A stretch of 64,000 bases of DNA from an uncultured cyanobacterium (GCA_963710605.1 CAVQBA010000004.1:992001-1056000); one strand, 5' to 3'. Numbered from the stretch's first letter, positions 12,361-32,488 are shown. The notes: generated from the sequence alone by a model not told the origin. Translations and numbers: made by a program.

Positions 12361-14053
12361 ATGGCAAAATTGTCATCTAATAAACCAAGGGTGTATAGAC
12401 TTTCTTCTGATGAACAGATCACTGATGAAGTAAAGCTGAGAATAGAAGTCATTCAAACTCTTATAGAGCCATGCGATCGTCAACTATACCGACAACGAAA
12501 GCAAGAAGCAGCTCAAAAGTTGGGTGTGTCCATTCGATCGATTCGAAAGATTGATGAAAAAGTATCGAGAAGAGGGTTTAGTTGGTATTAGTAAAAGTAG
12601 ATCTGATAAAGGAAAAGTTCGTATTGATCGAGATTGGTATGACTTTATTTTGGATACTTATAAAAAAGGTAATCAAAGAGGCAAAAGAATTACTCGGCAT
12701 CAAGTGTTCTTGAAAGTTAAAGGACGTGCTAAGCAATTAAGACTAGAGAAAAAAGATTATCCTAGCCATCAAACAGTTTATCGAATTATCGATTTATATA
12801 TAGAAGAACAAGATAAGAAACGTAAAGCAAGGAGTCCTGGTTATTCAGGTTCTCGCTTGACTCACATGACTCGTGATGGTAGAGAAATCGAAGTGGAAGC
12901 AAGTAATGATGTTTGGCAATGCGATCATACTCGTCTTGATGTCAGATTAATTGACGAATTTGGAATTTTAGATCGTCCTTGGTTGACTATTATTATCGAT
13001 TCGTATTCTCGTTGTTTGATGGGTTTTTACTTGGGTTTTGAAAGTCCTAGTTCTCAAGTTGATGCTTTAGCTTTGCGTCAGGCAATTTTACCGAAATCTT
13101 ATAGTTCGGATTATGGTTTACGTAACGAATGGACTGCTTATGGTACACCGACTTACTTTTATACTGATGGAGGTAAAGATTTTCGCTCAATTCATTTGAC
13201 AGAACAAGTCGCTGTACAGTTAGGTTTTAGTTGTTCTTTAAGAAGACGACCTTCTGATGGAGGTATTGTCGAACGTTTTTTTCGTACTCTCAACGATAGT
13301 GTTTTAAGAGAACTACCTGGATATACAGGAGCAAATGTTCAACAACGTCCCAAAAATGTCGATCTCAATGCTTCTCTTACTCTCAAAGATTTAGAGCTAA
13401 TTTTAGTTCGTTATATTATTGACGAATATAATCAAAAAGCCGATGCCAGAAGAAAGGATGCTACTCGGATGCAATTGTGGGAAAGCGGCTTAATTGTCGA
13501 ACCCGAACCCTACAATGAAAGAGAACTTGATATTTGTTTGATGAAACAAACAAGAAGAACGATTCAGAAGTTTGGCACGTTGCAATTTGAGAATGTAACC
13601 TATAAAAGTAATCATCTTCGAGGCATGGCTGGTGAAGTTGTCGTAATTTGTTACGATCCCGAAGATATTACTACAATATTAGTATATGAGCGTTTGAATG
13701 ATGATACAGAGCAATTTTTAGATTATGCTATAGCTCAGGGATTGGAAGCGGAAAAACTATCACTACGAGAATTAAAAGCTATTAATAAAAAATTGAATCA
13801 AGAGCAGGAAAAAATTAATAATGATGCTGTACTTGATGCCATTTTAGAACGAGAAGTTTTAGTGGAGGAGTTGAGTAAAAAGAATCGTCAAGAACGTCGT
13901 CAAGTAGCTCACCAAGAAGTTAATACCGTTAGAACAGTAGCAGAAAAGTTAAATATTGCTGAGCCTGAAGTTGTGGAAGAGGAAGAAAATGAAGAGGAAG
14001 AGTTACCTTCCTATCAAGTCCAGTATATGGATGACCTTTTTGATGATGATTAA
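12361..14053 (+). CDS. tnsB: CAST transposase TnsB (DDE), one-base frameshift near 12544
   Basis: HTH AAQKLGVSIRSI then ERLMKKY in the next frame; catalytic QCDHT, YTDGGKDF, GIVERFF. Confidence 0.92.
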
Positions 14054-14076
14054 TTATTAGTGGAGATTAATAGTAA

Positions 14077-15542: not shown

Positions 15543-18500
15543 ATGAATCGAAATGCTTTAGTTATTGGAATAAATAACTATCCTTTTTTGAAAAAAACCA
15601 ATGGACAAACAAACAATTTGACTACTCCAGCAACAGATGCTGAAGCGATCGCATCCTTATTAGAAAATCATGGTAACTTTAAAGTTAAACGATTACCAGA
15701 AGCTAGTATTGACGGCAAGCTACAGGTAGATCCGAATGGAACAGTTAACGCTAAAGAATTACAAAAAGAAATAAAAAATTTATTTTTACCAGAAAGTCAA
15801 CAAATTCCTGATACTGCCTTATTATTTTTTACTGGACATGGTTTGAGAAAAAAACAAGCAAAAAGATATAAAGGCTTTTTAGCAACGAGTGATTGTAATT
15901 TTAGTCAAGATAGATACGGTTTTTCACTACAAGTTTTAAGAGAAATATTAGAAAATAGTGATATTCTTCAACAAATAATCTGGTTAGATTGTTGTTATGC
16001 AGGAGAATTACTTAATTTTGAGGAAGCAAATCCAGAAGAAAAAGGAAGAGCGAGAGATCGTTTTTTTGTAAGTGCATCTGCTGATTTTGAAGAGGCGTAT
16101 CAGCTTTTAAATAAAAAATCAGGAGCTTTAAGTAGTGTCTTATTAAGAGGACTCAATCCTCGACAAAAAAAGCAACAACAATGGATTAATAATTTTTTCG
16201 TAGCTGATTTTATTTGTGAAGAATTTCAAACAAATCCTCAACTCAAAAATTTACCTCAAAGACCTGTTTGTCATAACTATGGAGGAATAATTCAACTTAT
16301 TCAAGGAGAAAAAATAGACGAAGAAATAAAAATTGATACATTAATTTCATCATCTCAAAAAACACAACAAAAATTGACTGTTGAGTTGATGTATAAGCAT
16401 TTTGAAAGAGTCAAAGCTATTGCTGGAACACGCTATACTCCCGAAATTAATGTTGATTTGCCAGAAGCTAGAATCTTTGAAGCTTTAGGTACAACAGATG
16501 TTTTCTTCAACAAAATTAACAATTTATATTCTCAGCTATATCATAAGTGGAAAAAGATTAAGATATTACCACAATCATTACAACAATTTATTTATATAAT
16601 CAATTTAAGAAATAATCTAGAAAATGATATCAAACCATTAATCAATATTTTGAAAAAAATACCAGAAAGAGATACGTTAATTATAGATTTTGACTCTATG
16701 GTTTCTTATTCAAAGAAAATTTCTGAGTATGATATTTTTGATTTAATTTATCCAGATAATATTAACCAAATAAAAAAATCAAAAGATAACAATAATGATG
16801 ATTTAAATAGAGCTTTAAATTATATTTATAATGATGTTTCCAAGCTCAAAACATTAGTAACCGAAATTTATCAACTTGTCATAAATGAAGTAGCGGCTTG
16901 TCATAACAGAAAACTTCTACTTATTGGAGAAGCGGGTACAGGTAAAACTCATCTCTTGTGTGATATTGCTAAACATCGTCTTGATAAATCACTCCCAACA
17001 ATAATTTTATTAGGACAACATTTTACTCAAGGTAATCCTTGGACTCAGATTATCAACCGATTCAATCTTTCGTTTCAAAATCAAGATGAATTCTTAGAAG
17101 CATTGGAAACTAGTGCAAAAAGTTGTGGTAGTCGAGCAATGATTTTGATTGATGCTCTTAATGAAACTACTGATAAAGGTTTATGGAAAAATGAATTAGC
17201 GGGGATGTTAACAGATTTAGATAACTATCCAAATATTTGTATTGCTGTCAGTTGTCGAACTTCATACGAGAAAGCAACAATTCCCGAAGAACTTGTTCCA
17301 GAAAAATTAGTTAAAGTTAAACATCATGGGTTTGAAAATCACGAATATATTGCAACAAAAACCTTTTTTAATCATTATGGAATTGAGCTTCCCAATGTAC
17401 CTTTACTAGTTCCAGAGTTTTCTAACCCACTTTTTTTGAAAACACTTTGTCAAGGTCTTAACAAGAAAAAATTAACCCGAATACCCAAAGGTTGTAAAGG
17501 AATTACTGCTATTTTAAATTTGTTTATAGATTCAGTTCATAATACTTTATCTGAACGACTTAATTATGACGAAAAAGATAATTTAGTGAAAAAAGCGTTA
17601 CAAGCTCTAGCTTTAACTATGGCAGACAATGGAGAAACTTGGATAGAAAGAAAAAAAGCACGAACTATTGTTAATTCGTTTTTACCGATAAGCAATAGTA
17701 ATTTTTCACAGAGTTTATTTAGTAATCTAATCGCTGAAGGATTATTATCAGAAGATTTACATTATTCTTCTTCAGAAGATATATACGAAGATGAGCAAGA
17801 AATTCATATTATTAGATTTCCTTACGAAAAATTTAGCGATCATTTAATTGTTCGTTATTTACTGCAAAAATACTTTGATAAAAATAATCCTGAGAAATCA
17901 CTAGAAAAAAATAACTCATTAGGAAAACTAATACAAAATAAATGGAACATATTTAACAAAGCTGGTTTATTTGAAGCTTTGTGCGTTCAAATACCCGAAT
18001 TAATTGGCAAAGAATTAATGGAATTAACATCATGGAATGTATTGTATTTTGAACGTCCATTTCTACAAAGTATTATTTGGCGTAATCCAAAGACAATCAC
18101 TCAAAAAACCAAAGATTATCTTAATGAAATATTTAAGGAAGAGGGAACAGAAGAAAAAGTTTATGAGCTTTTACTTACAGTTGCAACTGAACCAAACCAT
18201 CCTCTAAATGCCAAGTATCTGCATAAACATCTTCTCAACATGAATATGTCAGATAGAGATGCTATTTGGTCTGTTTATCTCTATTATCAATATGGAGAAA
18301 AAACGATTGTCGATCGTTTAGTTGAATGGGCATGGGATGCAGAAAAAGCTCATATTTGCGATGAGTCGATCGAACTTTATGCGATCGCTTTAACATGGTT
18401 TTTGACAACATCCGATCGTTTTCTTCGCGATCGAGCTACCAAAGCTTTAGTTTCAATGCTACATCCTAGACCTCTTGTTTTAGTGAAAGTGATTGAACAA

Positions 18501-20559
18501 TTTTTAGAAGTTAACGATCTTTATGTTTTAGAGCGTTTATATGCTGTTGCTTATGGCGTAGCGATGCTAAGTGAAAATTATCAAGAAGTAGGAGATCTAG
18601 CTCATAAAGTATATGAGTGGGTATTTAAAGATGAAAAACCACCAACACATATTCTTTTACGTGATTATGCTAGTGGAGTCATTGAAGTAGCAAATAATCT
18701 TGGGGCTTTATCAACCAATATAGATATGGAGAAAACCTCACCTCCTTATCAAAGTGATTGGGAACTAGATATTCCGACACAAGAGGAGCTAGAGCTATAT
18801 ATTAAACTAATTAAGCTTTGTTTTGATAATAGTATAACAAAACTAATATTACTATCCCTTCTTCAATCGTGGGATCTTAATTGCTTAATGATTTATTGGT
18901 TAAATTTTTGGTTGATAATCACTTTAAGAACAACTGATAGTGAATATCATCAACATCCTAAATATGCTTTAGACTTAGTCCAAAGATCTGTTCTTAATGA
19001 TGACCCTGTAATGGGAGGTGACTTTTCTATATATGTGATAGATTATTGTACCAATAATTGGTTTTCTCGCAGAATAAATCAACCCAAGGAATTAACTAAA
19101 AAAGAAAAATATGAGCAGTTTATTGACTCTCTTACTGATAAACAAAAACAAGCATGGAAAAAATATACGATAGCACGAGAAAACGTGAACTACTATGAAA
19201 CATTAGATCGAGAAGGTCGTATAGAATGCTTTGGAGAAGAATATTCAGATGAAAAATTAGTAGAGGCATTAGAATTTAAGAAATCATTATTTTTAAAGAC
19301 AATTGGTAAAAAGAAAACAGACATTTTTCTAAGTTATGTTCTGGATTATTTAGAAAATTCACGAGAAGAAAATATAGATATTTTTGATTCTTCCTTCGCA
19401 AAACGATGGATTCTTAAGCGGGTATTCGAATTAGGCTGGACGATCGAACAATTTGGCTTTTTCGATCGACACTGTTCCAGTCAAATGTCGTATTGCTAAT
19501 AAACCAGAGCGTATAGGTAAAAAATATCAATGGATTGCTTTTCATGAGTTTTTAGCACATATGGCGGATAATTTAGAGTTTAGAGAATCTTATTTATCCG
19601 ATAAAGTATCTGTTTATCAAGGTACTTGGCAAATTAGTGTAAGAGATATCGACCCATCTTTTTTATTGAAAAAAATTCCAGAATCTTCAATAAACCAAGT
19701 TAGATGGTTGACACCTGTTCACCACGAATTTAAGCATTGTATTAATGAAAAAGAACAAATAGATTGGATAACCAAAAAAAATGATTACCCCGATCCTTTA
19801 CAATTGATTGAATTAAATAATCCTGACGATAATAAACACTGGTTAACGTTAGAAGGTTTTTACCGATGGATGGAAAAAGAACCTTTAGAAGAAAAAATTT
19901 ATGAGAATCCTCGCAGAGAAATTTGGTATCAAATCAAAAGCTATATTGTTCGTAGTGAAAATGTAGATGAATTAGTTGAATGGTTAAAAGATAAAAATTT
20001 TGAAGGTAGATGGATGCCAGAATCACATCATATATCTAATGTTTCTGATGCTTTTTTGGGTGAATTTCCTTGGTCTGTATCTTGTCAAGAAGTAAATCAA
20101 ATCAATGATTGGACTCAATACACTAGTTCTCAAGAAGAATTACCACACCCAGTTTTAGTAACAACAACAGAATATATGAGTGAGGAAGGTGGATTTGATT
20201 GTTCGATTGATGAGACAATATCAGCTTTGATACCATCTAGTTGGCTAATAAAGAATATGGGATTAAAATGCTCCAGGAAAAAATTTGATTTTGTCGATTC
20301 AGATAACGAATTAACTGCTTTTACTCCATTAGGTGAACGACTTCCTAAAAATTGTCTGATCTCTAAAGAAAAATTGGCTCGTTTTCTGTTAGAAAATAAT
20401 TTAGAGATTATCTGGACATTATTGGGTGAGCGTCAACTTATTGGTGGCGAATTTGGTAAATGGAAAGGACGTATGGAAATTTCAGGAGTATATCAACTAA
20501 AAAATGGTTCAGTAACTCAAATAAAACTGAATAATTGGCATAACAAACCAAAAGAATAA
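15543..20559 (+). CDS. Caspase (peptidase C14)-Avs2-type STAND ATPase fusion, frameshift near 19470-19500
   Basis: N-terminal ALVIGINNY, FTGHG, WLDCCYAG (His/Cys dyad); then RYTPEINVDLP, GEAGTGKT, LIDALNE, LRDRATKAL, ERIGKKYQWIA, RDIDPS, motifs I recognise from AVAST type 2. Confidence 0.78.
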
Positions 20560-20601: not shown

Positions 20602-22287
20602 TTAACTTGCTTCACTCTCCTCAGGATTATTTTCACTCTGTAACTTTCTTAATCCTTGATTGGCAATATCCGCACTCAATCCCCATAAAAATAAACCTAA
20701 ATAATCATATAATCCATTAACTCCAAAAGTTGCTCCTGCGTTTACATATAAAGTTTGTAATCCTAATAATACTAAAAGAATCAAGAAAACTAACCATAAA
20801 AGAGGACGAATTAACCAATAACGCACTTCTGCATTGAGAGTTTGAATACCAGATAATGCCGCTAAAAGTTTTGCCAACCAATTCCAACGATGACCGCCAG
20901 GAAGTCTAGGTTTTGGTAAAGCTTGAAAAGCCTCAATTAACTGATTACTATTTTCACGAAAGCTATCTAATAAAGGTTGAATAATATCATCACCTATTCC
21001 CATTGAACCATCTGCTTGTGCTTCTCTTAATTTGTCCTCAACTTCATTACTTAATTGTTGTGCTTGTTCGAGATTACCATTGATTAATGACTCTCTAGCT
21101 TCGTTGATTTTAGGATTTAATAATGCTTTGAGTGCATCTAATTCATTTAATTTAGTTTCTAAAGCTTCTAAGTTACTTGAAAAACTAACGATGATATCAA
21201 GCTTCTTCAATTCTTGTTCTACTATTTCTTCTGTTTCTTCTCCTCGATCGATTTTCTGTTTTAATGCTTGAAATTGTGGCTCTAAATAATTCAAAACATC
21301 TTCATTATTAATACTGACTGCTTTACCACGCAATTGAGCGTAACGAGGATAAAGGTTAACCTGTTTTTGTGCTTTAGGACTTTCCATATCCTGTGATAGT
21401 CTTCCTACCAGAATACCCAAAATAATCACAATTAAAGCCCAAATAGGTGCATCACGTACTGCTATAGTTGTATTAACCTTGAGGGGTTCATCAGCATTTT
21501 CTAACTTAAATCTTAAAGTACCCTGATAAAAGTCTGCGGAAAGTTGATTGCGATTAATTATTAACTCAATATCTCCAATATCTTGAGTTTCCAAAGTTGG
21601 ATTAAGAACAGTTAGAGATATTTCACTACTATTTACTGAATTACCTGTTTTTTCCCCTTGCATGACTACCTTCGCATCAGTAATTTGAACAGGAATTAAA
21701 GTTTCATTATCTAGCTGTACTATCCATTGATTCTTTGTCACGCTATCTGGTAATAACAAAGTGGCTAATCCACAACTAATAGGGTTATGACAACGAACTA
21801 CTTGAAAGTTTAAGTTGTCAGTAACAGGAGCAACATTAGGTTCGGCATCAATATCTAATTGCAAAGGGATTTCTAAAGGTTCAACATCCGTTTGTCCTGA
21901 AACTATAAACTGAATATTACCTTGATATTTACCTGGATGAATAATATTATTTATAGTAACTCGTACATCACGAGGTTGTCCTTTACTTAAACTTGTTCCT
22001 GTTGGAATGTTGATTTGGCTACGATCGATCTTGATACTGTCATCATTTACTTTAGTAAGATCAGAGGGGAGTATTTGCAAATCCTTAACTTCACCATCAG
22101 TTAATGTCAGCCTTACGTTACCACTAAAAGAAGTCGTTTCCTGATCTAATGTTCCTTTTATAATTAAAGGATTATCTTGCTTATCAACTATCAAACTAGG
22201 TAATTCCTGAGCTAAAACTTGAGATGAACTAAATATAATGACAACAAAGCTAATAACTAAAGTAAAACGCAACAATAACTTTCCCAT
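20602..22287 (-). CDS. Membrane protein: signal peptide, beta-rich extracytoplasmic region, TM helix, coiled coil, ~2 C-terminal TM helices
   Basis: Hydrophobic segments at the N-terminus, IWALIVIILGILVG, LLWLVFLILLVLLGL and YLGLFLWGLS; no family recognised. Confidence 0.7.
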   Translation of the reverse strand: MGKLLLRFTLVISFVVIIFSSSQVLAQELPSLIVDKQDNPLIIKGTLDQETTSFSGNVRLTLTDGEVKDLQILPSDLTKVNDDSIKIDRSQINIPTGTSLSKGQPRDVRVTINNIIHPGKYQGNIQFIVSGQTDVEPLEIPLQLDIDAEPNVAPVTDNLNFQVVRCHNPISCGLATLLLPDSVTKNQWIVQLDNETLIPVQITDAKVVMQGEKTGNSVNSSEISLTVLNPTLETQDIGDIELIINRNQLSADFYQGTLRFKLENADEPLKVNTTIAVRDAPIWALIVIILGILVGRLSQDMESPKAQKQVNLYPRYAQLRGKAVSINNEDVLNYLEPQFQALKQKIDRGEETEEIVEQELKKLDIIVSFSSNLEALETKLNELDALKALLNPKINEARESLINGNLEQAQQLSNEVEDKLREAQADGSMGIGDDIIQPLLDSFRENSNQLIEAFQALPKPRLPGGHRWNWLAKLLAALSGIQTLNAEVRYWLIRPLLWLVFLILLVLLGLQTLYVNAGATFGVNGLYDYLGLFLWGLSADIANQGLRKLQSENNPEESEAS

Positions 22288-22417
22288 AGGAGATCGAGTT
22301 ATATTAATTTGTCCAATAGAATCATAGCAATTCTAGCAATCAGATGAAAAAACTTTTTCTTGTTCTACAAGTTCTTTGAATAAAAATGCCTAAGAAGTAG
22401 GATTTTCTATTTTTGAG

Positions 22418-25400
22418 TTAACCACACACAGGTTGAGCTAATTTTACATCAGCAGAAGCAAATAAGCTGTAAGCTAATCCTCTGGGGTCTAAATGTTCTC
22501 GTAATAAGCTGTGACGAGATTTAAATAAGGCTTCTCCTGCGGGATTTTGCTGTAAGAAGGATTGGAAAAAGTTAACCATAAAAGCATTCGCTAACATTTC
22601 TTTTACTTCACATTGCGTACCAATCACTCCAGCCGCACCTCAATCGCAGAAAAATTGTAGTAAATTCTCAAAATTATCAGGGGTATAATCAGCAGTGTCA
22701 CAAGCATTGAGAACAATTAAAGGTTGATGCTGGTCAAATTTCATATCCCATGCATCTAAATCTATTAACTGTATTTTATCACCATTACCAATAGTCAAAA
22801 AAGGACTATCATCAAATTCATCTATGCCTCCATGAGTATAAAAGTATAAAATATCTGCTGGAGTAGTACCATAATTTTTAATCATTTGTTTGAAGCTATC
22901 ACGGCTATCAATTCGCAGAAATTCTAGTTGTTTTGCTGAGGCTAATTTTCCTAATTCTTCCCAATGATGAGCTAATCGTTTAAAGTTGTTAAAGACAGTT
23001 GCATTAACTAATAACGGTAAATTATTACGAATAAATAAGGGTAAGGAATTTTTTGGTAAAGGTTTATGGGGTTCAAGTTTACAAGGTAATTGCTCGATAA
23101 TATAACGATAGCCCCAAAAACTATGAGGACAAACGGTTATTTCTTCCTCATCTGTACCATAACTAGGACAATCTTCAGGATTGGCACCATGTTGATGCCA
23201 ATTAGGACAAAGTTTAGTAACTCCCTCTTGATAAGACTCTATTTTTCGTTCATAAAGTAATTCCCAAGGTACACCTAAAGCACTAGATAAAGGAGCAACT
23301 TGAATTACTGTTTCGGGTTTTAAATCTACATTTAATCTTTGTCTGTCATCATGAATATCTTCTTGATAATCTAATCCCGGTAGTAAAGCTAAATAGAATT
23401 TTCTACCAATAACTGCTAATTCTCCTAAATGTTTAGTTAAAACTGCTTCTGTACTGCCTAATGTTCCTGAATAGGCGTTCATCGTTTGACATAATTGTTT
23501 ACGTATTACTGTTAAGGCTTTGGTTAATTTAGCGTCGGTTAAGGTTGATTGTTGAAAGCCTAAATCTGTTCCTTCTGTATCATAAAAGCGAAGTCCAATG
23601 CGATTATAGTCTATATCTCTTTCAGCGACAATCGTTAATTTACGAGGTTTATCTTGAAGAGGTTTTAAATCTTCAGTGCTTAAAGAGACAGCACGAGTCC
23701 AAGTTACATAAGCATCTTGCACAGGAAATGCTGATTCTGGTGGTTCATCTTCTGCATTTTCTACCACATCAATTTCTATTCTTTTTGATTGTAATAAATG
23801 CCCTTGTAAAAGTAGGTCTATATCAATACTATGTCTTCCTGTACGAGTAAAGGTTAAATCAAAAAAGATATATTCACTATCTCCTTTGGGAGGAAGTTTT
23901 AGTTTTTGAATTGGTGAATCTATTTCTACATCAAAAGAATTAACAACTACATCTAAATCTAAATATTCTTTATCTTCAAATAAGGTTTTTATTGATTCAT
24001 CTGGAAAGGTAACGTTAGGGTTTCCTATTCCCCAAAATTTACCAATATTAATTTTTAGATAATACTTTTTGGTATTTAGTTTCAATGGTTGATGAGTTGA
24101 GATATTTTTTTTCTCATTCAGTAAACAAAAACCACAATTTAGATAACGTTTTTCAAAAGAAAACGATTTATCTTTATTTGATAATTGTTGCTTAATTGCG
24201 TTATTAAGAATTCTATTTTCAGAAATATCATTTTCAGTAATGTGACCTGAATCTAAACAATTGGAAATAGCATTACTAACCTCATCCTTAAATGAATATC
24301 TTTGCACAATTCGCACATAAGACACTGCTTTACAACCCTTGGACCAAGACATGACTAAAGTATCGAAAATATCTTTAGCTTTTAAGGCTCTTTCTTCTTC
24401 GTATTTAAAATAAACTCCTTGGTTAAGGTTAAAGAGTAATTCCATCGAAATCCCCGTATCAATCCATTGTTGAATTGTGGCGATCGCTTTTACTACTTCA
24501 TCTTGATGCAAATTTTTATTTTCTTGATAAAACCAATATTTATCACTAATATAAGGAGGTGCGATCGCTACTGTTCCTGTTGCCCACTTATCATAGAAAA
24601 ATCTACTATATACAGGTAAGACACTTGCTGTACATCCTTGAACCAAAGAAGAAGATGTATTAGGTGCGATCGCAGTTATATGTGAGTTACGTATTCCGTG
24701 TTGTTGAATATCTAATGATAATTGTTGCCAACGAGATGTATTGTAAGCGTTTTGCTCGAACCATTCCACAGGCTTACAACCAATTAATAAACCTTTACTC
24801 CAATCGCTATTTTCAAAGGCAGGATAAGCACCTCTTTCTTGAGATAGCTTCATAGAAGCATGAGTACAATAATAACCAATATCTTCAAATAAGTTACTAA
24901 TTTGATTGAGGTTGTTGTATCTTAATTGACGTTTGGCTAACCAATCGGCTAACCCCATCGCACCAACACCAATGGTACGATAACGATCGTTATGAGATGC
25001 GGCATCTTCAAAAGGAGGTTGAGTAATTTCGATCGTATTATCTAAAATTCTCACGGCTAAATTACAGACAGATTCAATTATTTGATCATCCACATTAGCT
25101 AAATTGAGCGATACTAAATTACAACAATGAGCATATTTACCAGGGGTAACATTAGAAAAAGATTCGGTACATAAATTGACACCAGGAATATAACCATCAT
25201 GTTTATTTGGATTAGCTCGATTAATGGCATCTTTAAAAGCTAAGTAAGGCATTCCTGTCTCTACTTGTGCTTTCATTATTTCTTTGAATAATTCTCTAGC
25301 ACTTACTTTTTTGTAGAGTTTGATTCTGGTATCTATACTTGCTTCAATTACAGAGTAAGCCTCTTCAAATTCTTTACCCCATAAAGGTGCTAAATCGATA

Positions 25401-26567
25401 CCTAAGTTCTGTTGTACTTCATAAGGATCGATTAAAGTCCATTCTTGCCTATTTTGTACCCGACGCATAAATTCATCGGCGATAACTAGTTGAGGAAAGA
25501 CATCGTAGGCTTTACGACGTTGGTCGCCATTTTCGGTTTGCATTTCCAAAAATTCGGGTACATCTAAATGCCAAATATCTAAACCGACGGTAACTGCCCC
25601 TGCTCGTCTTCCTCCTTGATTAACAGCAATAGCTGTATCGTTGAGTAATTTAATCCAAGGTATTACACCACCTGAAGCGTTGTTTTTACCCATTACAGCA
25701 CTGCCTGTGGCACGTATTCTGGATACATTAACTCCTACTCCACCACCATTTTTAGAAATACGAGCGGTGTTAGTTATTTCTCGGAAAATACTTTCTAAGT
25801 TGTCGTCAATACTCACAATAAAACAACTTGTCAATGAGCCATTTGGTACTCTTAAGTTCGCCAAAATCGGTGTAGCTAAAGAAATACGACGAGATGCGAT
25901 CGCTTCGTAAAATTGACGAGCATAATGTAATCTCTCTTCAGGTGCCTCTACCATCGCTAATAATAAAGCACAAGTTAAAAACGCTTCTTGAGGTAACTCA
26001 TCATCAAGTAAATAACGATTAGTTAGTAAAACTGCCCCTGCGTAGTCATAATCTAAATCCCAGTCAGAATTAATCCAACTACCCGCTTCTTCTAATTCTG
26101 CGGTTGAATAAGTTAAAATACGATCGTCATATTTACCTTGAGCAACAAAGTCACTTACTGTTTGTACATAATTACCGTAGTTATAACCCCGACTAACTAA
26201 AATTTCTTTCCACAAACTCCAAATATATAAACGCCCAGCTACATAACGCCAATCTGGTTGCTCCAGAATCACATAATTCTAAAGCACAGTTGATTAAATT
26301 ATCTTGAATTTCTCTAGTCGTAATTCCATGACGTAAACGAGTTTTCAAACCCGATTCTAAAGCAATTGAATTAACTTCTTTGGGGTAACAAGCCCAATCA
26401 ACAACTTTTCTGATTTTACTAATGTCTAAAGGAGCAAATTGACCACTTCTTTTGATTACTTGAATTTGCTTAGGTAATTTTTCGTATCGTAACTTATCTA
26501 GATTATGCTTTACATTATCATCTATAAAAGTTTTTTTTTCTTGAACTTGATTTTTAGATGAACTCAT
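22418..26567 (-). CDS. ATP-cone + class I ribonucleotide reductase alpha (NrdA) fused to a CHAT protease; frameshift ~26270 and in-frame TGA at 22640-22642
   Basis: ATP cone IQVIKRSG..TTREIQ; RNR motifs LATPILAN, TSCF, NLCTE, CNLVS, TAIAPNTSSS; open frame continues into CHAT motifs YFYTHGG and LNACD; GAAGVIGTQCEV follows the TGA in frame. Confidence 0.8.
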
Positions 26568-26657
26568 GAAATTGATACATAAATAATTGTAATAAAATAA
26601 ATGCTTAAAATTTAGTTATAACAGTACATACTATAAAAAATCAGAATATTTATATTT

Positions 26658-28928
26658 TTACTTAACTAATTCTTGAGCTAACTTAACATCAGCAGAAGCA
26701 AATAAACTATAAACTAAACCTCTAGGATCTAACTGATTTAATAGTATTTTACGAGCCTGAAATAACGCTTCCCCTGCACAAGTTTTTTGAAAGAAAGACT
26801 TAAAGAAATGAATCATTAACTCATTAGCTAACATCTCCTTTACTTCACATTGTGTACCGATTACTCCCGCCGCACCTTTATCATGAAAAAACTGTAACAA
26901 ATTTTCAAAACTTTCAGGACTATAGCCAGCAGAATCACAAGCATTTAATACAATTAAAGGTTGATGTAGATTAAAATTAATATTCCAAGCATCTAAATCA
27001 TTTTTCTTAATTTGTTCTCCATCTCCCACTTCAAGATATGGTCTTCTAAAAATATCACTTCCTCCATGAGTATAAAAATACAAAATATCAGCAGAATTAT
27101 CAATATCGAATAAAGCAGATTCTACCTTATCTAAACTATCAAGTTTTAATAATTCCAGTATTTCTTTAGATGCTAAATTACGTAAGTTTTGCCAATGTTC
27201 ATCTAATAGATTTAATTCATTAGAAACGATCGCCTTAAACTGTAAAGGTGACTGATTACGAATTAATAAAGGTAAAGAATGCTCAGGGGTAGAAGCATGA
27301 GGCATAACTTTACAAGGTAATTGCTCAATAATATAGCGATAACCCCAAAAACTATGGGGACAAACTGTTTTGGCTTCTTCTTTTGTGCCATAACTAGGGC
27401 AATCTTCAGGATTCGCACCGTGCTGTTTCCATGTGGGACAAAGTTTAATTTTTCCTTCACGATAACTTTCTATTTTACGCTCATAAAGTAACTCCCAAGG
27501 CACACCTAATTGACTCGATAAAGGTGCTACTTGAATGATAGTTTTTGGTTGTAAATCAACTCTTAAATTTTCTCCCCTATCTATCTTATTTTTTTGCCCA
27601 GATAACTTGGGTAATAATTCTGTATAAAATGATCTGCCAATATCGGCTAATTTACCTAAATGCTTAGTTAAAACTTCTTCTGTACTCCCAATACTGCCTC
27701 CATAACCTTTTACCATTGTTTCACATAATTGAGTCCGTATTGCAGCTAAAACTTGAGTTAAATTATCATTAGTTAGTTGAGAATGTTGGCAACCTAAATC
27801 TTTTCCTGTGTTATCGTAAAATCTTAAGCCGATACGATTATAATCAATATCCCTTTCCGTTACTATGGTTAACCTACGAGGATTCTTCTTTAAAAAAGTT
27901 AATTCATCTGGATTTAAAGTAGCACTACGAGTCCAAGTAATATAAGCATCTTGTACTGGAAAAGCAGATTCTGGGGCAATATCTCCTGATTTTTCCACCA
28001 CATAAACTTCAACTCGTTTTGACTGTAATAAATACCCATGAAACATTAAATCAATATCAATACTTTGTCTTTGAGTGCGAGTAAAAGTCACAGGAAAATC
28101 AATAAATTCACTATCACCTATTTTGGAGAGTTTTAATCGTTGTTGACTAGATATGATTTCAACGTCAAAAGAATGAAGTATTACATCCATTTCTAAAGTA
28201 TCTTTATCTTCAAAAAAAGGCTCTAATAATTCTTCTGGTAAAGCAGTATCGGGAGAACCAATTCCCCAAAATTTCCCAACATTAACTTTTAAAATATACT
28301 CGGCGATTTCTAAAGCTAAAGGCTGTTGGGTATCGACAAATCGATAATGATTTAATGAATAATGATCTAATTGATAAAATCCTGTATTTATATAACGAGG
28401 CTGTATTTTATCTATACCTTTGTCTATATCTTCTCTTATAACTCCCTCATCGGAATTACTTACATCGGTAGCTGAATTAAAATAATACTCAAATTTTTCA
28501 TCTATATTGGAATTGGTAATTAACTGCTTAGGATTATCCGATTTGAAAATCTGGCTAGCGGCAACAATAATGGGTACAGAATTATTTTCATCTATACCAA
28601 AAGTAATCGGTTTATTTTCTTCTAAGTTTAATTTTTCTATATCCTGCCAAGTAGGTAATATCTGTTCGACTGATTCTTTCCCGAAGGTACTTTCAATTAA
28701 ATTCAATTTAAAGTAATTTGCTTGATATATCCTCTTTAATTCTTCATCGTTTTCAATAATTGTCATTAACGCTGGTTCAATTTCTTCTTCCCAGTCTTCA
28801 GGTGCCATTTCCAGCATATTCCCAATATTTCTTAATGACTCTAACCTTTCTGGAGGTAGAGTTGCATTGAATTCTCTTAAAGTTGGTAAAACAATAGAAA
28901 GTGTTCTATTAATATCTAAATTTGCCAT
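26658..28928 (-). CDS. CHAT-domain (clan CD) cysteine protease with helical N-terminal domain; paralog of the C-terminal half of the NrdA fusion
   Basis: VPWELLY, FWGYRYIIEQLP, YFYTHGG, LNACDS, GAAGVIGT; likely ATG at 28928 (ORF track 28976). Confidence 0.82.
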   Translation of the reverse strand: MANLDINRTLSIVLPTLREFNATLPPERLESLRNIGNMLEMAPEDWEEEIEPALMTIIENDEELKRIYQANYFKLNLIESTFGKESVEQILPTWQDIEKLNLEENKPITFGIDENNSVPIIVAASQIFKSDNPKQLITNSNIDEKFEYYFNSATDVSNSDEGVIREDIDKGIDKIQPRYINTGFYQLDHYSLNHYRFVDTQQPLALEIAEYILKVNVGKFWGIGSPDTALPEELLEPFFEDKDTLEMDVILHSFDVEIISSQQRLKLSKIGDSEFIDFPVTFTRTQRQSIDIDLMFHGYLLQSKRVEVYVVEKSGDIAPESAFPVQDAYITWTRSATLNPDELTFLKKNPRRLTIVTERDIDYNRIGLRFYDNTGKDLGCQHSQLTNDNLTQVLAAIRTQLCETMVKGYGGSIGSTEEVLTKHLGKLADIGRSFYTELLPKLSGQKNKIDRGENLRVDLQPKTIIQVAPLSSQLGVPWELLYERKIESYREGKIKLCPTWKQHGANPEDCPSYGTKEEAKTVCPHSFWGYRYIIEQLPCKVMPHASTPEHSLPLLIRNQSPLQFKAIVSNELNLLDEHWQNLRNLASKEILELLKLDSLDKVESALFDIDNSADILYFYTHGGSDIFRRPYLEVGDGEQIKKNDLDAWNINFNLHQPLIVLNACDSAGYSPESFENLLQFFHDKGAAGVIGTQCEVKEMLANELMIHFFKSFFQKTCAGEALFQARKILLNQLDPRGLVYSLFASADVKLAQELVK

Positions 28929-28976
28929 TTTTTTAAGTACATTGACAATAACTAATAAATAACAAAATAAATCCAA

Positions 28977-29153
28977 CTAATCCATTAATTTTTTTTGTGA
29001 AGATGGAATCTTGCCCTCATTTTCAGCATCTTCAATCGCTCTTTCCACCAAATAAGCCGCTAAATTAGCCACAGGACGACCTTGATTATTAGCCCATCTT
29101 TCCAAAGTTTCAAATACCTTATCTGGCAAAGTTAAATATACTCTCTTTGTCAT
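28977..29153 (-). CDS. Arc/CopG-like ribbon-helix-helix repressor, 58 aa, divergent from cas12k (not in ORF track)
   Basis: Hand translation MTKRVYLTLPDKVFETLERWANNQGRPVANLAAYLVERAIEDAENEGKIPSSQKKLMD*; occupies the regulator slot typical of V-K CASTs. Confidence 0.82.
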   Translation of the reverse strand: MTKRVYLTLPDKVFETLERWANNQGRPVANLAAYLVERAIEDAENEGKIPSSQKKLMD

Positions 29154-29291: not shown

Positions 29292-31163
29292 ATGAGTATC
29301 AAAACGATCGAATGTCGTCTTTATGCTTCTTCAGAAACTAAACGTTATCTTTGGCAGTTAATGGCAGATAGAAACACTCCTCTAATAAATGAGTTACTAT
29401 TTCAAGTCAGTCAACATCAAGACTTTGAAACTTGGTTTCAGACTAAAAAAATTGCTCAAAAACCCATCAAGGATATTTGTTTACCATTAAGACAACTTCC
29501 TCAATATCAAGAACAACCAGGAAGATTTTTCACGAGTGCGATTGCTTTGACTCATTACATATATAAATCATGGTTCGCAGTTCAACAGAGGCTTCAGCGA
29601 CGAATTGAAGGTAAACGTAGATGGTTTAATATTCTCAAAAGCGATTTAGAATTACAACAATTATCGGGTAACTCTATTGAAAAAATTATTACTCAAGCAG
29701 AAAAAATACTTGAGGACACTGAAACTCAGTTAAAACAAACAAAAAAAGATAGGAATAAAAAGAAAGATTCTAATTTATTCAACCACTTGATCGACGAATA
29801 CCAATCAAAAACTAATACTTTAGAACGGTGTGCGATTGCTTACTTACTCAAAAATCAATGCCAAATACCAGATGAAATAGAAGATATAGCTAAATTTGAG
29901 CAATATAGAAGAAAAAAAGAAATCGAAATCGAAAGACTTCAACAGCAACTAGAGAATCGTCTGCCGAAGGGTAGAGATTTAACTAGTAGAGAATGGTTTG
30001 ATACTTTGGCGATTGCATCAGAAAAAGTACCTGAAACTGAAAATGAAGCATCCGCTTGGCAAAGTAGCTTGTTAAGAAAATCACCGATTATTCCTTACCC
30101 AGTTAGTTATGAAACTAACACCGATTTAAGTTGGTCAAAAGATCGGCGAGGACATCTATTAGTCAAATTTAATGGTATTAGTAAACATCAGTTTGAAATA
30201 AGATGCGATAGAAGACATTTACATTGGTTTCAACGCTTTTGGGAAGATAGACAAATTTACAAACAAGATCCAACTAAATATAGCAGTGCCTTATTCACAC
30301 TTCGTTCTGCTCGTTTATTATGGCGTGAAAATAAAGGAAAAGGTAATCCTTGGGATATTCATACACTCTACTTACAATGTTCGCTAGATACTCGTTTTTG
30401 GACAGTAGAAGGTACACAAGAAATTGCTCAAACTAAAATTACTCAAACAAAAGAAAAATTAGAAAAAATTCAAGCTAAACCAGTTCTTAATTCTAATCAA
30501 GAAGCAGATCGACAACGAAAGCAATCTAGCTTAGAGAGAATCCAGAATCCTTTTCCACGACCACATAAACAACATTATAGAGGTAATCCCAATCTTATCT
30601 TAGGAGTTAGTTTTGGATTACGAAAACCTGCCACTGTTGCTGTAGTTAACGTTTTGACTCAAAAAGCGATCGTTTATCGTAGCATCAAACAATTATTGAA
30701 TGAAAACTATAAATTACTGAATCGTCAACGTCAACAGAAAATAGAATTGTCAAAACAAAGACACAAAGCCCAAAAACACGAAGGATTTAATCAAATAGGA
30801 GAGTCTAATTTAGGTGAATATGTCGATCGATTGATTGCCAAAGCGATCGTTGATATTGCCAAATCTTATCGAGTAGGTAGTATTTTTTTACCAGAACTGA
30901 AAAATATTCGTGAAATTTTACATAGTGAAGTTCAAGCTAAAGCAGAAATTAAAATTACTGGTTATAAAGAAGCTCAGAAAAAATATATGAAAGAATACCG
31001 TAAAAATTTACATCAATGGAGTTATAGCAGACTAATAGAATCAATTAGTCAACTAGCCAATCAAGAAAGAATATCCGTTGAATTTATCAAACAAAGTAAT
31101 GATGGTACACAGCAGGAAAAAGCTAAAAGGATAGCGATCGATGGTTACAATTCTCGCTCTTGA
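29292..31163 (+). CDS. cas12k: Cas12k (C2c5), nuclease-dead type V-K effector
   Basis: TIECRL..RYLWQLMADRNTPLINELL, QPGRFFTSA, RLPKGRD; RuvC-I Asp replaced (LGVSFGL); HQWSYSRL. Confidence 0.96.
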   Translation: MSIKTIECRLYASSETKRYLWQLMADRNTPLINELLFQVSQHQDFETWFQTKKIAQKPIKDICLPLRQLPQYQEQPGRFFTSAIALTHYIYKSWFAVQQRLQRRIEGKRRWFNILKSDLELQQLSGNSIEKIITQAEKILEDTETQLKQTKKDRNKKKDSNLFNHLIDEYQSKTNTLERCAIAYLLKNQCQIPDEIEDIAKFEQYRRKKEIEIERLQQQLENRLPKGRDLTSREWFDTLAIASEKVPETENEASAWQSSLLRKSPIIPYPVSYETNTDLSWSKDRRGHLLVKFNGISKHQFEIRCDRRHLHWFQRFWEDRQIYKQDPTKYSSALFTLRSARLLWRENKGKGNPWDIHTLYLQCSLDTRFWTVEGTQEIAQTKITQTKEKLEKIQAKPVLNSNQEADRQRKQSSLERIQNPFPRPHKQHYRGNPNLILGVSFGLRKPATVAVVNVLTQKAIVYRSIKQLLNENYKLLNRQRQQKIELSKQRHKAQKHEGFNQIGESNLGEYVDRLIAKAIVDIAKSYRVGSIFLPELKNIREILHSEVQAKAEIKITGYKEAQKKYMKEYRKNLHQWSYSRLIESISQLANQERISVEFIKQSNDGTQQEKAKRIAIDGYNSRS

Positions 31164-31751: not shown

Positions 31752-32150
31752 GTTTCAACGCTCTGATTAGTGTTTCGTAGATTGAAAGAAAAAAAGAGGC
31801 AATAAAGATTTAAAAATTGCTGGGTTTCAACGCTCTGATTAGTGTTTCGTAGATTGAAAGCATCAAGTAAAAGATATATTGCTATTTTCTACTCTGTTTC
31901 AACGCTCTGATTAGTGTTTCGTAGATTGAAAGGATCTTTCTGAAATTCAGAAAATTCCCGATTATCTGTTTCAACGCTCTGATTAGTGTTTCGTAGATTG
32001 AAAGTTTAGGATTAAAACCCGAAACCGTTGAAAGCTTGGTTGTTTCAACGCTCTGATTAGTGTTTCGTAGATTGAAAGCTAAATGGTTACTATCTCACAA
32101 TCGTGATGGTTTAGTTTCAATGCTCTGATTAGTGTTTCGTAGATTGAAAG
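31752..32150 (+). CRISPR. CRISPR array: 6 repeats (37 bp GTTTCAACGCTCTGATTAGTGTTTCGTAGATTGAAAG) and 5 spacers of 35-37 bp
   Basis: Repeats start at 31752, 31824, 31896, 31968, 32042 and 32114 (last has one C>T); TGAAAG 3' end typical of V-K. Confidence 0.97.
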
Positions 32151-32414: not shown

Positions 32415-32488
32415 TCGGGATGACAGGATTCGAACCTGCGACATCCTGCTCCCAAAGCAGGCGCGCTACCAAGCTGCGCTACATCCCG
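32415..32488 (-). tRNA. trnP: tRNA-Pro(UGG)
   Basis: CGGGATGTAGCGCAGCTTGGTAGCGCG-CCTGC-TTTGGGA-GCAGG...GGTTCGAATCC...CATCCCGA cloverleaf. Confidence 0.97.

What the first reader, a model, noticed from the sequence alone, without database searches (positions are those of the whole stretch)
20602..29153. Candidate new defence operon: CHAT protease + RNR-CHAT fusion + membrane effector
Seen: three co-oriented cargo genes directly behind the RHH repressor gene: a CHAT protease, an ATP-cone/NrdA-CHAT fusion and a multi-pass membrane protein. Established: CHAT/caspase proteases activate effectors in bacterial immunity (gasdermins, Craspase), and CAST cargo is rich in defence genes. Inference: a sensor protease, a partner protease and a cleavage-activated membrane effector. 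I do not recognise this as a named system.
Basis: partly seen in the sequence, partly recalled or inferred. Interest (0 to 1): 0.85.

Follow-up and report, generated by a model that had tools for sequence, protein, structure and literature searches.

The report
Protease relay with membrane protein partner
A caspase-like protease gene and a membrane-protein gene form a conserved pair that usually sits beside a second sensor-linked protease, probably a new phage-defence or cell-death module, while the eye-catching reductase-protease fusion between them is a one-off, now broken gene.

Summary
The three co-oriented genes exist in the cargo of a type V-K CRISPR-associated transposon. Two corrections apply.

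**The fusion gene (B).** The ATP-cone/NrdA-CHAT gene is broken, as assembled, by a +1 frameshift and an in-frame TGA. Its reductase part is a copy of the host's own nrdA (88.6% nt identity). That copy has lost one radical-transfer tyrosine and the C-terminal cysteine tail. No other full-length example of this fusion was found.

**The conserved unit (A + C).** Gene A is a CHAT-module protease and gene C is a 561-aa membrane protein of no known family.
- The pair is syntenic in 18 further loci from four phyla.
- The two gene trees are largely congruent.
- A predicted A-C complex scores 0.63 against 0.00 for the best control.

**A second protease.** In 14 of 16 assessable loci, a second caspase-fold protease gene lies next to the pair. 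In cyanobacteria (8 of 9 loci) this is one specific caspase domain fused to varying STAND or TPR sensors. In the window it is the neighbouring caspase-Avs2 gene at 15543-20559, which is outside the finding and is also frameshifted.

**Best reading.** A sensor-caspase, CHAT, membrane-protein relay, analogous to Avs2-trypsin-MBL. Function is inferred, not shown. The RHH gene is the transposon's own Arc_2-type regulator.

The parts
28977..29153 (-). 58-aa RHH_5 (Arc_2-type) regulator of the V-K CAST, divergent from cas12k. Context, not part of the module.
   Evidence: Pfam RHH_5 E 1.2e-18. Ziemann et al. 2023 describe RHH_5 'Arc_2' genes upstream of cas12k in reverse orientation (passages).
26658..28976 (-). 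Gene A: CHAT-module protease. N-terminal helical domain about 1-172, beta-sandwich region, helical hairpin, Cys/His cluster, CHAT domain. The likely start is the ATG at 28928 (756 aa).
   Evidence: Pfam CHAT. H621 and C664 are invariant in 42 homologues. AF2 pLDDT 84; best PDB matches are Craspase Csx29, separase, SAVED-CHAT and DdvA. Groups with the partners of C's closest relatives.
26193..26567 (-). Gene B, first piece: ATP-cone ORF (124 aa), ending out of frame with the rest.
   Evidence: Pfam ATP-cone E 2.8e-11. Frame offset +1 read from the sequence.
22640..26272 (-). Gene B, main piece: class I NrdA body (residues about 1-663) joined to a B-type CHAT module. Ends at an in-frame TGA (22642..22640).
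   Evidence: Pfam Ribonuc_red_lgN/lgC and CHAT. NCBIfam NrdE_NrdA 573 bits. 88.6% nt identity to the host's own nrdA, with homology ending at about 24282. YY changed to SY and no CTAC tail.
22418..22639 (-). Gene B, tail: last 73 codons of the CHAT domain, lying behind the TGA.
   Evidence: The read-through translation aligns with gene A's C-terminus and with P0002/P0008.
20602..22287 (-). Gene C: 561-aa membrane protein. Signal peptide, two periplasmic beta-sandwich domains (31-279), TM 282-302, cytoplasmic helical bundle 304-455 with a conserved DGSMG loop (D426 invariant), TM 486-516 and 526-552.
   Evidence: No Pfam, PADLOC or NCBIfam family. 34 homologues. AF2 pLDDT 77. The complex model places residues 382-389 and 422-428 on A.
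15543..19499 (+). Caspase (Peptidase_C14, residues 1-245) fused to an Avs2-type STAND NTPase, first piece. Convergent with C, 42 nt from its end. Proposed sensor protease of the module.
   Evidence: Pfam C14 E 7e-13. PADLOC Avs2 1048 bits. NCBIfam Avs2 966 bits. The caspase domain is 43-48% identical to the caspases next to the pair in L017, L018 and L055.
19453..20559 (+). Avs2-type gene, second piece (C-terminal sensor part), in another frame.
   Evidence: PADLOC Avs2 profile positions 1147-1500. The two ORFs overlap at 19453-19499, a stretch that holds a TTTTT run.

Best explanation
**What the region holds.** The region carries the effector half of a protease-relay conflict (defence or cell-suicide) module, as cargo of a type V-K CAST.

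**Conserved unit.** The unit is gene A plus gene C. A is a cytoplasmic separase/Craspase-type CHAT protease with an N-terminal adaptor-like helical domain. C is an inner-membrane protein with periplasmic Ig-like domains, a cytoplasmic helical bundle and a highly conserved C-terminal two-helix membrane hairpin. In cyanobacteria the pair works with a neighbouring protein that has an active caspase domain fused to a variable sensor. Here that sensor is of the Avs2 type; for the trypsin-fused Avs2 the trigger is phage terminase.

**Proposed mechanism (inferred).**
1. Sensor oligomerisation activates the caspase.
2. The caspase activates A.
3. A docks on the cytoplasmic bundle of C and cleaves at or near the conserved DGSMG loop.
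4. The freed membrane hairpin damages the membrane, giving abortive infection.

**Gene B.** B is not part of the conserved unit. A CHAT module of another sub-clade lost most of its own N-terminal domain to a duplicate of the host's class I nrdA. That reductase copy kept its fold under purifying selection but lost radical transfer and the redox tail. It was therefore at most a nucleotide- or partner-binding domain.

**State in this genome.** B, the Avs2 gene and tnsB all carry frame-breaking lesions, so the element appears to be decaying.
For: **Synteny**
- A CHAT-module gene lies directly upstream of the C homologue, on the same strand, in 9 of 11 genome loci.
- The same holds in 4 of 15 metagenome loci with 2 kb or more of upstream sequence. 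9 of the 24 metagenome loci were too short to judge.
- It holds in 5 of 10 loci fetched from a 401-genome cyanobacterial sample.
- All but one (L032) of the loci whose C homologue is 38% or more identical to the window's C (as listed) have it.

**Co-evolution**
- The CHAT-module and C trees share the clades (L020,L030), (L022,L031), (L017,L018) and (c8336,L019).
- Window A and window C both fall with c13134, c8745, L017 and L018.

**Predicted binding**
- ipSAE is 0.63 against 0.00 for the best of 3 controls.
- The mark was reached by 58 of 80 solved complexes and 2 of 110 mismatched pairs.
- The runs agree in at least 83% of their contacts, and the partner's pLDDT is at least 67.
- My own alignments were used, so the calibration counts hold only roughly.
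- The interface covers C 382-389 and 422-428 (DGSMG starts at 426) and A 407-423, 573-574 and 697-699.

**Second protease**
- 8 of 9 cyanobacterial pair loci have an adjacent gene with the same caspase domain. E values to the window's domain range from 1e-57 to 6e-79, and identity to the L017, L018 and L055 domains is 43-48%.
- That domain is fused to Avs2, nSTAND1-WD40, nSTAND1-FGE-sulfatase, iSTAND, NB-ARC, TPR or an Avs4-like module.
- Its GHG and DCC motifs are invariant in 10 of 10 sequences.
- 6 other loci have a large canonical CHAT gene directly upstream instead.

**Protease swapping**
- Distant C-like genes have a Peptidase_S8 gene, or an MBL/SLT protein plus a Peptidase_M14 gene, upstream.

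**Adaptor logic**
- Homologues carry EAD2, EAD7 or TCAD7 N-termini. Kaur et al. 2020 assign this class of domains to effector recruitment (passages).

**Defence context**
- The module is CAST cargo.
- BREX genes lie beside L022.
- Distribution is patchy: 2 of 41 relatives and 13 of 401 cyanobacteria.

**Precedents**
- Avs2-trypsin-MBL (abstracts and passages).
- SAVED-CHAT activating PCaspase (abstract).

**Gene B**
- The lesions are read directly from the sequence.
- The reductase part is 88% nt identical to the host's own nrdA, 82% to the same-genus genome and 80% or less to others.
- On the cargo branch there are 65 synonymous and 35 non-synonymous changes (omega about 0.14). On the host nrdA branch the counts are 75 and 18 (about 0.064).
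- All 12 housekeeping NrdA sequences end in ...AVYYVRIVQRDSFK(E/D)E..CTACAN. B instead has SY and no CTAC.
- None of the best 150 of 1.84 billion representatives spans both halves, except a 108-aa fragment with the identical junction.
- None of the 120 listed CHAT-module homologues carries an RNR Pfam domain.
Against: - No experiment or expression data exist. No sequencing run was listed.
- Cleavage of C, the order of the two proteases and the lethal effect of the hairpin are all inferred.
- C has large, well-conserved periplasmic domains, which a pure pore-former would not need. This favours a sensing or anchoring role.
- The catalytic His and Cys of A are not among the confident contacts in the complex model.
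- 5 of 10 cyanobacterial C-like genes stand alone without a protease, so the family is not always protease-coupled.
- Neighbours are only modestly defence-rich, and I made no statistical test of enrichment.
- In this genome the proposed sensor is frameshifted, so the module may be inert here.
- The frameshifts could be assembly errors. A second assembly fragment (P0206) shows a different frame break. Against this, eight long housekeeping frames checked show no internal stops.
- The cargo reductase could have been captured recently from an unsampled sister species. In that case the low omega says nothing about selection on the fusion.
Confidence: 0.55

Rival explanations
1. C is the sensor or anchor rather than the effector. 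Its periplasmic Ig-like domains detect an envelope or extracellular cue (phage adsorption, cell-wall damage, kin signals). It then recruits or activates the CHAT protease at the membrane, and the proteases cleave soluble cellular targets.
For: - The periplasmic domains are well conserved: N57, R59, L60, D107, Y121 and G123 are invariant, and the fold is confident.
- A periplasmic TPR-CHAT anti-sigma sensor, DdvA, is a precedent for CHAT-linked transmembrane signalling (passages).
- Acidobacterial C-like loci hold an open reading frame with a weak anti-sigma-type zinc-finger (zf-HC2) match.
- The complex model shows binding but not an active-site pose.
Against: - The CHAT-module proteins carry effector-recruiting adaptor domains (EAD2, EAD7, TCAD7). 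They also sit beside cytoplasmic STAND sensors that already supply a sensing function.
- The most conserved part of C is the C-terminal membrane hairpin, not the periplasmic part.
Confidence: 0.22
2. The module serves developmental or social cell death, or differentiation, in multicellular bacteria rather than phage defence. HetF-type CHAT proteases in cyanobacteria would be the parallel.
For: - Carriers include filamentous cyanobacteria (Okeania, Trichodesmium, Calothrix), Chloroflexota and Acidobacteriota.
- Kaur et al. 2020 link such caspase/STAND systems to a multicellular habit (abstract; passages).
Against: - In the window and in L070 the caspase is fused to Avs2- and Avs4-type STAND modules, which are known phage sensors.
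- The module rides a transposon and a plasmid and is patchily distributed.
- It lies beside BREX genes in L022.
Confidence: 0.13
3. A is the sensor protease, RNR-CHAT is its partner, and C is the cleaved effector. The frameshift and TGA are sequencing errors or are read through.
For: - The three genes are co-oriented and tightly spaced.
- B keeps the His/Cys dyad and the Cys cluster.
- One other contig (13,134 bp) also carries two CHAT-module genes plus C.
- The reductase part shows omega of about 0.14.
Against: - The TGA is a substitution, not a typical indel error.
- Long housekeeping frames are clean.
- B's CHAT module belongs to the sub-clade whose partners are a different C clade.
- The fusion was not found elsewhere.
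- 16 of the 18 other pair loci examined at DNA level have only one CHAT-module gene.
Confidence: 0.07

Closest known systems
Avs2-trypsin-MBL (AVAST type 2 with a proteolytically activated effector)
   Same: An Avs2-type STAND sensor carries an N-terminal protease domain, and a separately encoded effector module lies next to it. In the published system, sensor assembly activates the protease, which cleaves and unleashes the effector (abstracts and passages of 10.64898/2026.08.25.746987 and 10.1101/2025.09.03.673762).
   Different: Here the fused protease is a caspase, not a trypsin. The neighbour is a CHAT protease plus a membrane protein, not an MBL nuclease. A text search of the Avs2 preprint found no mention of caspase or transmembrane partners. 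The window's Avs2 gene is split by a frameshift.
SAVED-CHAT / PCaspase cascade of type III-B CRISPR-CBASS hybrids
   Same: Two caspase-fold proteases act in series, one CHAT and one caspase, and give abortive infection (abstract).
   Different: That cascade is triggered by cyclic oligoadenylate through a SAVED domain. Its order is CHAT then caspase, and no dedicated membrane protein partner is described in the abstract.
Craspase (type III-E gRAMP with Csx29 TPR-CHAT cleaving Csx30)
   Same: These are the best structural matches of gene A (7zoq_A E 1.8e-10, 8eex_B). A CHAT protease cleaves a dedicated neighbouring substrate. Known cut sites are after Met or Leu (passage in PMC11506125).
   Different: There is no Cas7-11 or crRNA here. 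A has beta-sandwich and Cys-cluster inserts instead of a long TPR arm, and its partner is an integral membrane protein.
Bacterial gasdermin systems
   Same: A caspase-like or other protease is encoded next to a membrane-acting effector released by cleavage, and the protease type varies between loci (search listing and abstract of 10.1101/2021.06.07.447441; the rest recalled).
   Different: C shows no gasdermin family match or fold match. It is already membrane-inserted by predicted TM helices.
Kaur/Aravind 'System 4' (EACC1 membrane protein + N-terminal caspase with variable C-terminal domains)
   Same: A constant N-terminal caspase is fused to many alternative domains, including STAND NTPases, and is paired with a membrane component (section 33 of PMC7159879). 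The window's caspase gives a sub-threshold hit to NCBIfam caspase_w_EACC1 (62 bits against a cut-off of 140).
   Different: The membrane partner here is a 560-aa three-helix protein, not the single-helix EACC1. A CHAT protease intervenes. The carriers are cyanobacteria rather than actinobacteria.
Class Ia ribonucleotide reductase large subunit NrdA
   Same: Gene B has the ATP-cone, the all-alpha domain and the barrel, with the active-site Cys/Asn/Glu motifs (NLCTE, SCF, HCCN) present. It is 88.6% nt identical to the host gene.
   Different: The first Tyr of the YY radical-transfer pair is Ser. The C-terminal CTAC redox tail is replaced by a linker to a CHAT module. The frame is broken.

Membership tests
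CHAT / caspase-fold cysteine protease (Pfam PF12770) | Family profile match above the curated cut-off | tested here: met
   Gene A scores 54.5 bits against a cut-off of 24. Gene B's main ORF scores 23.2 bits, just below 24, because it is truncated by the TGA.
CHAT / caspase-fold cysteine protease (Pfam PF12770) | Catalytic His-Cys dyad | tested here: met
   H621 (YFYTHGG) and C664 (LNACDS) are invariant in 42 aligned homologues. Both motifs are present in B.
CHAT / caspase-fold cysteine protease (Pfam PF12770) | Separase/Craspase-like fold | tested here: met
   Foldseek best hits are Csx29 (E 1.8e-10), separase, SAVED-CHAT and DdvA, for a model with pLDDT 84.
Class Ia RNR NrdA (functional enzyme) | ATP-cone, N domain and barrel with active-site Cys/Asn/Cys/Glu | tested here: met
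   Pfam and NCBIfam matches. The motifs are seen in the translation.
Class Ia RNR NrdA (functional enzyme) | Tyr-Tyr radical-transfer pair near the C-terminus | tested here: not met
   B has SY where 12 of 12 housekeeping sequences have YY. That this pair is essential is recalled from the E. coli literature.
Class Ia RNR NrdA (functional enzyme) | C-terminal redox-active Cys pair | tested here: not met
   12 of 12 housekeeping sequences end in CTACAN. B diverges after SFKDE into a linker.
Class Ia RNR NrdA (functional enzyme) | One uninterrupted reading frame | tested here: not met
   +1 frameshift near 26265-26279.
Avs2 (AVAST type 2) | Avs2 STAND and sensor profile | tested here: inconclusive
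   PADLOC gives 1048 bits for piece 1 and 368 bits for piece 2. NCBIfam gives 966 bits against a cut-off of 1000 for piece 1 alone. The gene is split into two frames.
Avs2-trypsin-MBL system | N-terminal trypsin-like domain and an adjacent MBL effector | tested here: not met
   The N-terminus is Peptidase_C14. The neighbours are C and the CHAT genes, and no MBL was seen among the cargo ORFs.
Bacterial gasdermin system | Effector with gasdermin fold or family | tested here: not met
   C has no Pfam match. Foldseek hits cover only the Ig-like N-terminal domains.
Borvo (BovA) | BovA profile match over its length | tested here: not met
   Only 60-70 residues around the catalytic Cys match (E 0.006 for A, 6e-5 for B).
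EACC1-caspase 'System 4' | EACC1-associated caspase subfamily and an adjacent EACC1 gene | tested here: not met
   NCBIfam caspase_w_EACC1 gives 62 bits against a cut-off of 140. The gene upstream of the caspase gene is tniQ, only 112 nt away. No dedicated EACC1 search was run.
Type V-K CAST cargo | tnsB/tnsC/tniQ, cas12k, CRISPR array and tRNA-adjacent end flanking the genes | tested here: met
   cas12k was recognised by me from its sequence and position; no family profile matched it. Transposon end repeats were not mapped.

The most novel reading that the evidence does not exclude
There are two linked novel readings.

**(1) A new protease-relay system.** The sensor-caspase, CHAT-module protease and C membrane protein may form a previously undescribed protease-relay immune or suicide system that spans several phyla. 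Its terminal component would be a new kind of protease-gated membrane effector. Its first protease would be a cassette that plugs into many STAND sensors, including Avs2.

**(2) An integrated host enzyme.** Before it broke, the RNR-CHAT chimera may have been an 'integrated host enzyme' receptor. In this reading a catalytically dead copy of the cell's own NrdA tethers a CHAT protease to the reductase complex or to dATP/ATP-driven oligomers. Infection-induced changes in nucleotide pools, or phage proteins that target the reductase, would then switch on proteolysis. Integrated decoys in plant NLRs would be the parallel.
Probability: 0.3. Interest if true: 0.82.

Novelty: new variant of a known kind. 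Interest (0 to 1): 0.62.

Why it matters
If the relay works as inferred, it would add a membrane-targeting output and a caspase-to-CHAT step to the growing set of bacterial immune systems that use sensor-fused proteases. It would also give a family of about 560-aa membrane proteins of no known family a testable role, with a candidate cleavage loop. It further suggests that Avs-type sensors exchange whole protease-plus-effector cassettes (trypsin-MBL here, caspase-CHAT-membrane protein there).

The reductase-protease chimera shows that a CHAT-module protease can take up a housekeeping enzyme as a new N-terminal domain. Whether that is a route to new sensors or just an accident remains open, because the only copy found is broken.

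Tried and rejected
- **Sequencing runs**: none was listed, so neither the lesions nor expression could be checked from reads.
- **Earlier findings of this scan**: nothing to show.
- **Foldseek of C against the PDB**: only generic Ig/ASH/pilin-like hits to the periplasmic domains. Nothing was found for the helical bundle or the membrane hairpin.
- **ESM Atlas for C**: only unnamed clusters.
- **Paralogue search**: no second copy of A's N-terminal domain in the own genome. The idea that it pairs with an identical adaptor elsewhere in this genome therefore found no support.
- **Programmed frameshift or stop read-through in B:** considered and set aside. No conserved fusion relatives exist to show conservation of such a signal.
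- **RHH as repressor of the module:** rejected in favour of its described role as a CAST regulator.
- **Assembly-quality check**: this was rough. It shows no internal stops in eight long housekeeping frames, but rpoB's family was not found at all, and one glutamate-synthase frame (1038 aa) may be short.
- **Literature searches**: no description turned up of a caspase-STAND + CHAT + this membrane protein system, or of an RNR-CHAT fusion. Supplementary tables of Kaur et al. 2020/2021 and of the Avs and trypsin-MBL preprints could not be opened and may list these architectures.

Full report
**Observation**

The minus strand between 29153 and 20602 carries four co-oriented ORFs:
- a 58-aa RHH_5 gene (29153..28977);
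- gene A (28976..26658; 756 aa if it starts at the ATG at 28928);
- gene B;
- gene C (22287..20602, 561 aa).

Pfam finds the following:
- CHAT in A;
- ATP-cone, Ribonuc_red_lgN, Ribonuc_red_lgC and a partial CHAT in B;
- nothing in C.

The surroundings are a type V-K CAST:
- tnsB, tnsC and tniQ at 12361-15430;
- cas12k at 29292-31163;
- six 37-nt repeats at 31752-32150;
- tRNA-Pro at 32415-32488.

RHH_5 genes divergent from cas12k are the 'Arc_2' regulators described for these transposons (passages of PMC9938897). The RHH gene therefore belongs to the transposon, not to the cargo module.

**Gene B is broken and is a local chimera**

Two lesions interrupt the gene:
- The ATP-cone ORF (26567..26193) and the main ORF (26272..22640) are offset by +1. 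The switch lies between about 26279 and 26265.
- The main ORF ends at a TGA (22642..22640) inside the CHAT domain. After it the same frame runs on for 73 homologous codons. The closest homologues have Arg or Lys at that position.

The reductase part comes from the host lineage:
- The genome has a separate intact nrdA (770 aa, contig 7) and an nrdB.
- B's reductase part is 88.6% identical in DNA to that gene over 2185 nt.
- It is 82% identical to the same-genus genome and 80% or less to 24 other relatives with a match. Homology stops at about 24282.
- All 12 housekeeping NrdA sequences examined end in ...AVYYVRIVQRDSFK(E/D)E..CTACAN. B instead has SY, and after SFKDE it continues into a 45-residue linker and the CHAT module.

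Codon counts with the same-genus gene as outgroup:

| Branch | Synonymous | Non-synonymous | Omega (approx.) |
|---|---|---|---|
| B (cargo copy) | 65 | 35 | 0.14 |
| Host nrdA | 75 | 18 | 0.064 |

The pairwise dS between the two copies is 0.57. So the copy evolved mostly under purifying selection.

The fusion was not found elsewhere:
- None of 120 listed CHAT-module homologues (of 163 hits) carries an RNR domain.
- In an exhaustive search of 1.84 billion representatives, each of the best 150 matched either the reductase part or the CHAT part. The one exception is a 108-aa fragment with the identical junction, followed by a different frame break.

tnsB and the neighbouring Avs2-type gene are also split by frameshifts. 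Eight long housekeeping frames elsewhere in the genome show no internal stops. I read this as a decaying element rather than a poor assembly, but the test is rough: the rpoB family was not found at all, and the assembly is 85% complete.

**The conserved unit is A plus C**

C has 34 homologues at 33-77% identity. None carries a Pfam domain.

By matching longest-contig lengths (and, for two pairs, adjacent locus tags), several lie on the same contigs as CHAT-module hits. Examples are adjacent locus tags on a Calothrix plasmid and in a Chloroflexi MAG.

At DNA level a CHAT-module gene lies directly upstream on the same strand in:
- 9 of 11 genome loci, where the other two have a Peptidase_S8 gene or an MBL/SLT gene there;
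- 4 of the 15 metagenome loci with enough upstream sequence, 9 of the 24 being too short to judge;
- 5 of 10 loci from a 401-genome cyanobacterial sample, in which 13 genomes had any match.

The loci without a CHAT module are, with one exception (L032), those whose C-like gene is 35% or less identical to the window's C (where listed), or (five cyanobacterial loci, identity not measured) that stand alone.

Maximum-likelihood trees of the two proteins share four well-supported clades. They place window A and window C with the same partners. B's module falls instead with the Calothrix and contig-8336 clade, with 100/100 support. So A is C's cognate and B is an extra.

**Structures and contact**

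C (pLDDT 77):
- a signal peptide;
- two beta-sandwich domains (31-279);
- a TM helix (282-302);
- a cytoplasmic five-helix bundle (304-455);
- two further membrane helices (486-516 and 526-552).

The C-terminal hairpin and a DGSMG loop (starting at 426, with D426 invariant) are the most conserved cytoplasmic and membrane features.

A (pLDDT 84):
- an N-terminal helical domain;
- a beta-sandwich region;
- a helical hairpin;
- a Cys/His cluster (C497, C510 and C523 invariant);
- the CHAT domain, with invariant H621 and C664.

A's best solved relatives are Craspase Csx29, separase, SAVED-CHAT and DdvA.

A complex prediction of A 175-756 with C 300-486 gave these results:
- ipSAE was 0.63 against 0.00 for the best of three controls.
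- The mark was reached by 58 of 80 solved complexes and 2 of 110 mismatched pairs.
- The runs agree in at least 83% of their contacts, and the partner's pLDDT is at least 67.
- My own alignments were used, so these counts hold only roughly.
- The confident interface joins C 382-389 and 422-428 to A 407-423, 573-574 and 697-699.

This supports binding. It does not show cleavage, and the catalytic dyad is not among the confident contacts.

**A second protease belongs to the system**

The window's Avs2-type protein starts with a caspase domain. It lies convergent to C, 42 nt from its end.

That domain (residues 1-245) is 43-48% identical to the N-terminal caspase of nSTAND1-WD40 proteins beside the pair in Okeania, Trichodesmium and genome G022. 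The rest of those proteins is unrelated.

In the cyanobacterial sample the same caspase domain lies next to the pair in all five further loci. It is fused to iSTAND, TPR, NB-ARC, nSTAND1-FGE-sulfatase, a WD40 protein or an Avs4-like module.

Overall, 8 of 9 cyanobacterial pair loci have it. The GHG and DCC motifs are invariant in 10 of 10 sequences. A's N-terminal helical domain is conserved in the five sampled loci and aligns over its full length with the L017 and L018 proteins.

Six non-caspase loci (L019, L020, L024, L029, L030, L031) carry a large canonical CHAT gene directly upstream instead.

Counting only loci with enough context, 14 of 16 have a second caspase-fold protease gene beside the pair.

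Homologues of the CHAT module carry EAD2, EAD7 (weak) or TCAD7 N-termini, or CpXC-TPR, a chaperonin fragment, or a vWA-like region plus FGE-sulfatase. The first three are among the effector- and ternary-complex-associated domains; Kaur et al. 2020 describe the effector-associated domains as adaptors that recruit peptidases and effectors to NTPase-based conflict systems (passages and section 33 of PMC7159879).

**Mechanism proposed**

Shown:
- gene content, synteny and co-phylogeny;
- intact catalytic motifs;
- a predicted A-C interface.

Inferred:
1. The sensor moiety assembles on its trigger. For the trypsin-fused Avs2, that trigger is phage terminase (abstract of 10.64898/2026.08.25.746987).
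2. Assembly activates the fused caspase.
3. The caspase activates A.
4. A cleaves C in or near the DGSMG loop.
5. The membrane hairpin is freed to damage the membrane.

Precedents:
- Avs2-trypsin-MBL and other trypsin-MBL modules (abstracts).
- SAVED-CHAT activating PCaspase (abstract).
- Craspase cutting Csx30 after Met or Leu (passage in PMC11506125).

The main rival is that C is a sensor or anchor, which its conserved periplasmic domains favour. I rate the relay-with-membrane-effector reading at about 0.55 and the sensor reading at about 0.2.

**Comparison and novelty**

No Pfam, PADLOC (2023) or NCBIfam (June 2026) model covers A's module as a family or C at all. Five literature searches found no description of this combination or of an RNR-CHAT fusion. 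Supplementary tables could not be read.

The theme is known: a sensor-fused protease with a protease-released effector, and caspase/CHAT cascades. The membrane protein, the caspase-CHAT-membrane cassette and its pairing with Avs2-type sensors appear new. I file it as a new variant of a known kind.

Its earlier function as a nucleotide or decoy sensor is possible but untested.

Noticed in passing
window 12361-14053: tnsB of the CAST is split into a 76-aa N-terminal ORF (12361..12591) and a 509-aa ORF (12524..14053) in another frame, so the transposase looks inactivated.
   Followed up: partly
window 19453-19499: The caspase-Avs2 gene is split into two overlapping frames. The overlap contains a TTTTT run, so a real frameshift and an assembly slip cannot be told apart here.
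   Followed up: partly
L072, L073, L075, L076 (C-like gene at about 9.1-10.9 kb, or 3.7-5.4 kb in L075): Four cyanobacterial genomes carry a 547-568-aa C-like gene with no adjacent protease; in three of them (L072, L073, L075; not L076) it lies beside ParA-like genes. This is a protease-free branch of the family with unknown role.
   Followed up: no
L026/L035, L036, L037, L039 and L027: Acidobacterial and soil-metagenome C-like genes sit in a larger block. In L036 and L037 it holds a TPR-CHAT protein, two small ORFs, a Peptidase_M14 gene and a 650-aa MBL plus SLT-domain protein; L026/L035 show the M14 and MBL/SLT genes, L039 the MBL/SLT-type gene. L027 has TPR-CHAT, two small ORFs (one a weak anti-sigma zf-HC2 match) and a Peptidase_S8 instead of the MBL/SLT protein. 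This may be a related system with different proteases.
   Followed up: partly
L022 670-6159: BREX genes (BrxA, a BrxC-like ATPase) lie directly upstream of a CpXC-TPR-CHAT-module + C pair in an Anaerolineae MAG.
   Followed up: no
own genome G000: The RNA polymerase beta family (PF00562) gave no match anywhere in the 3.93-Mb, 7-contig assembly, and the only strong glutamate-synthase frame is 1038 aa. The assembly is incomplete (85%).
   Followed up: no
protein P0008 (metagenome contig of 13,134 bp): This is a 1525-aa relative of B's module with a vWA-like N-terminal region (DxSxS motif noted by eye) and a C-terminal FGE-sulfatase domain. By matching longest-contig length (13,134 bp) it appears to lie on one contig with an A-type CHAT gene and a C homologue 77% identical to the window's. 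It is the only other two-CHAT-module trio seen.
   Followed up: partly
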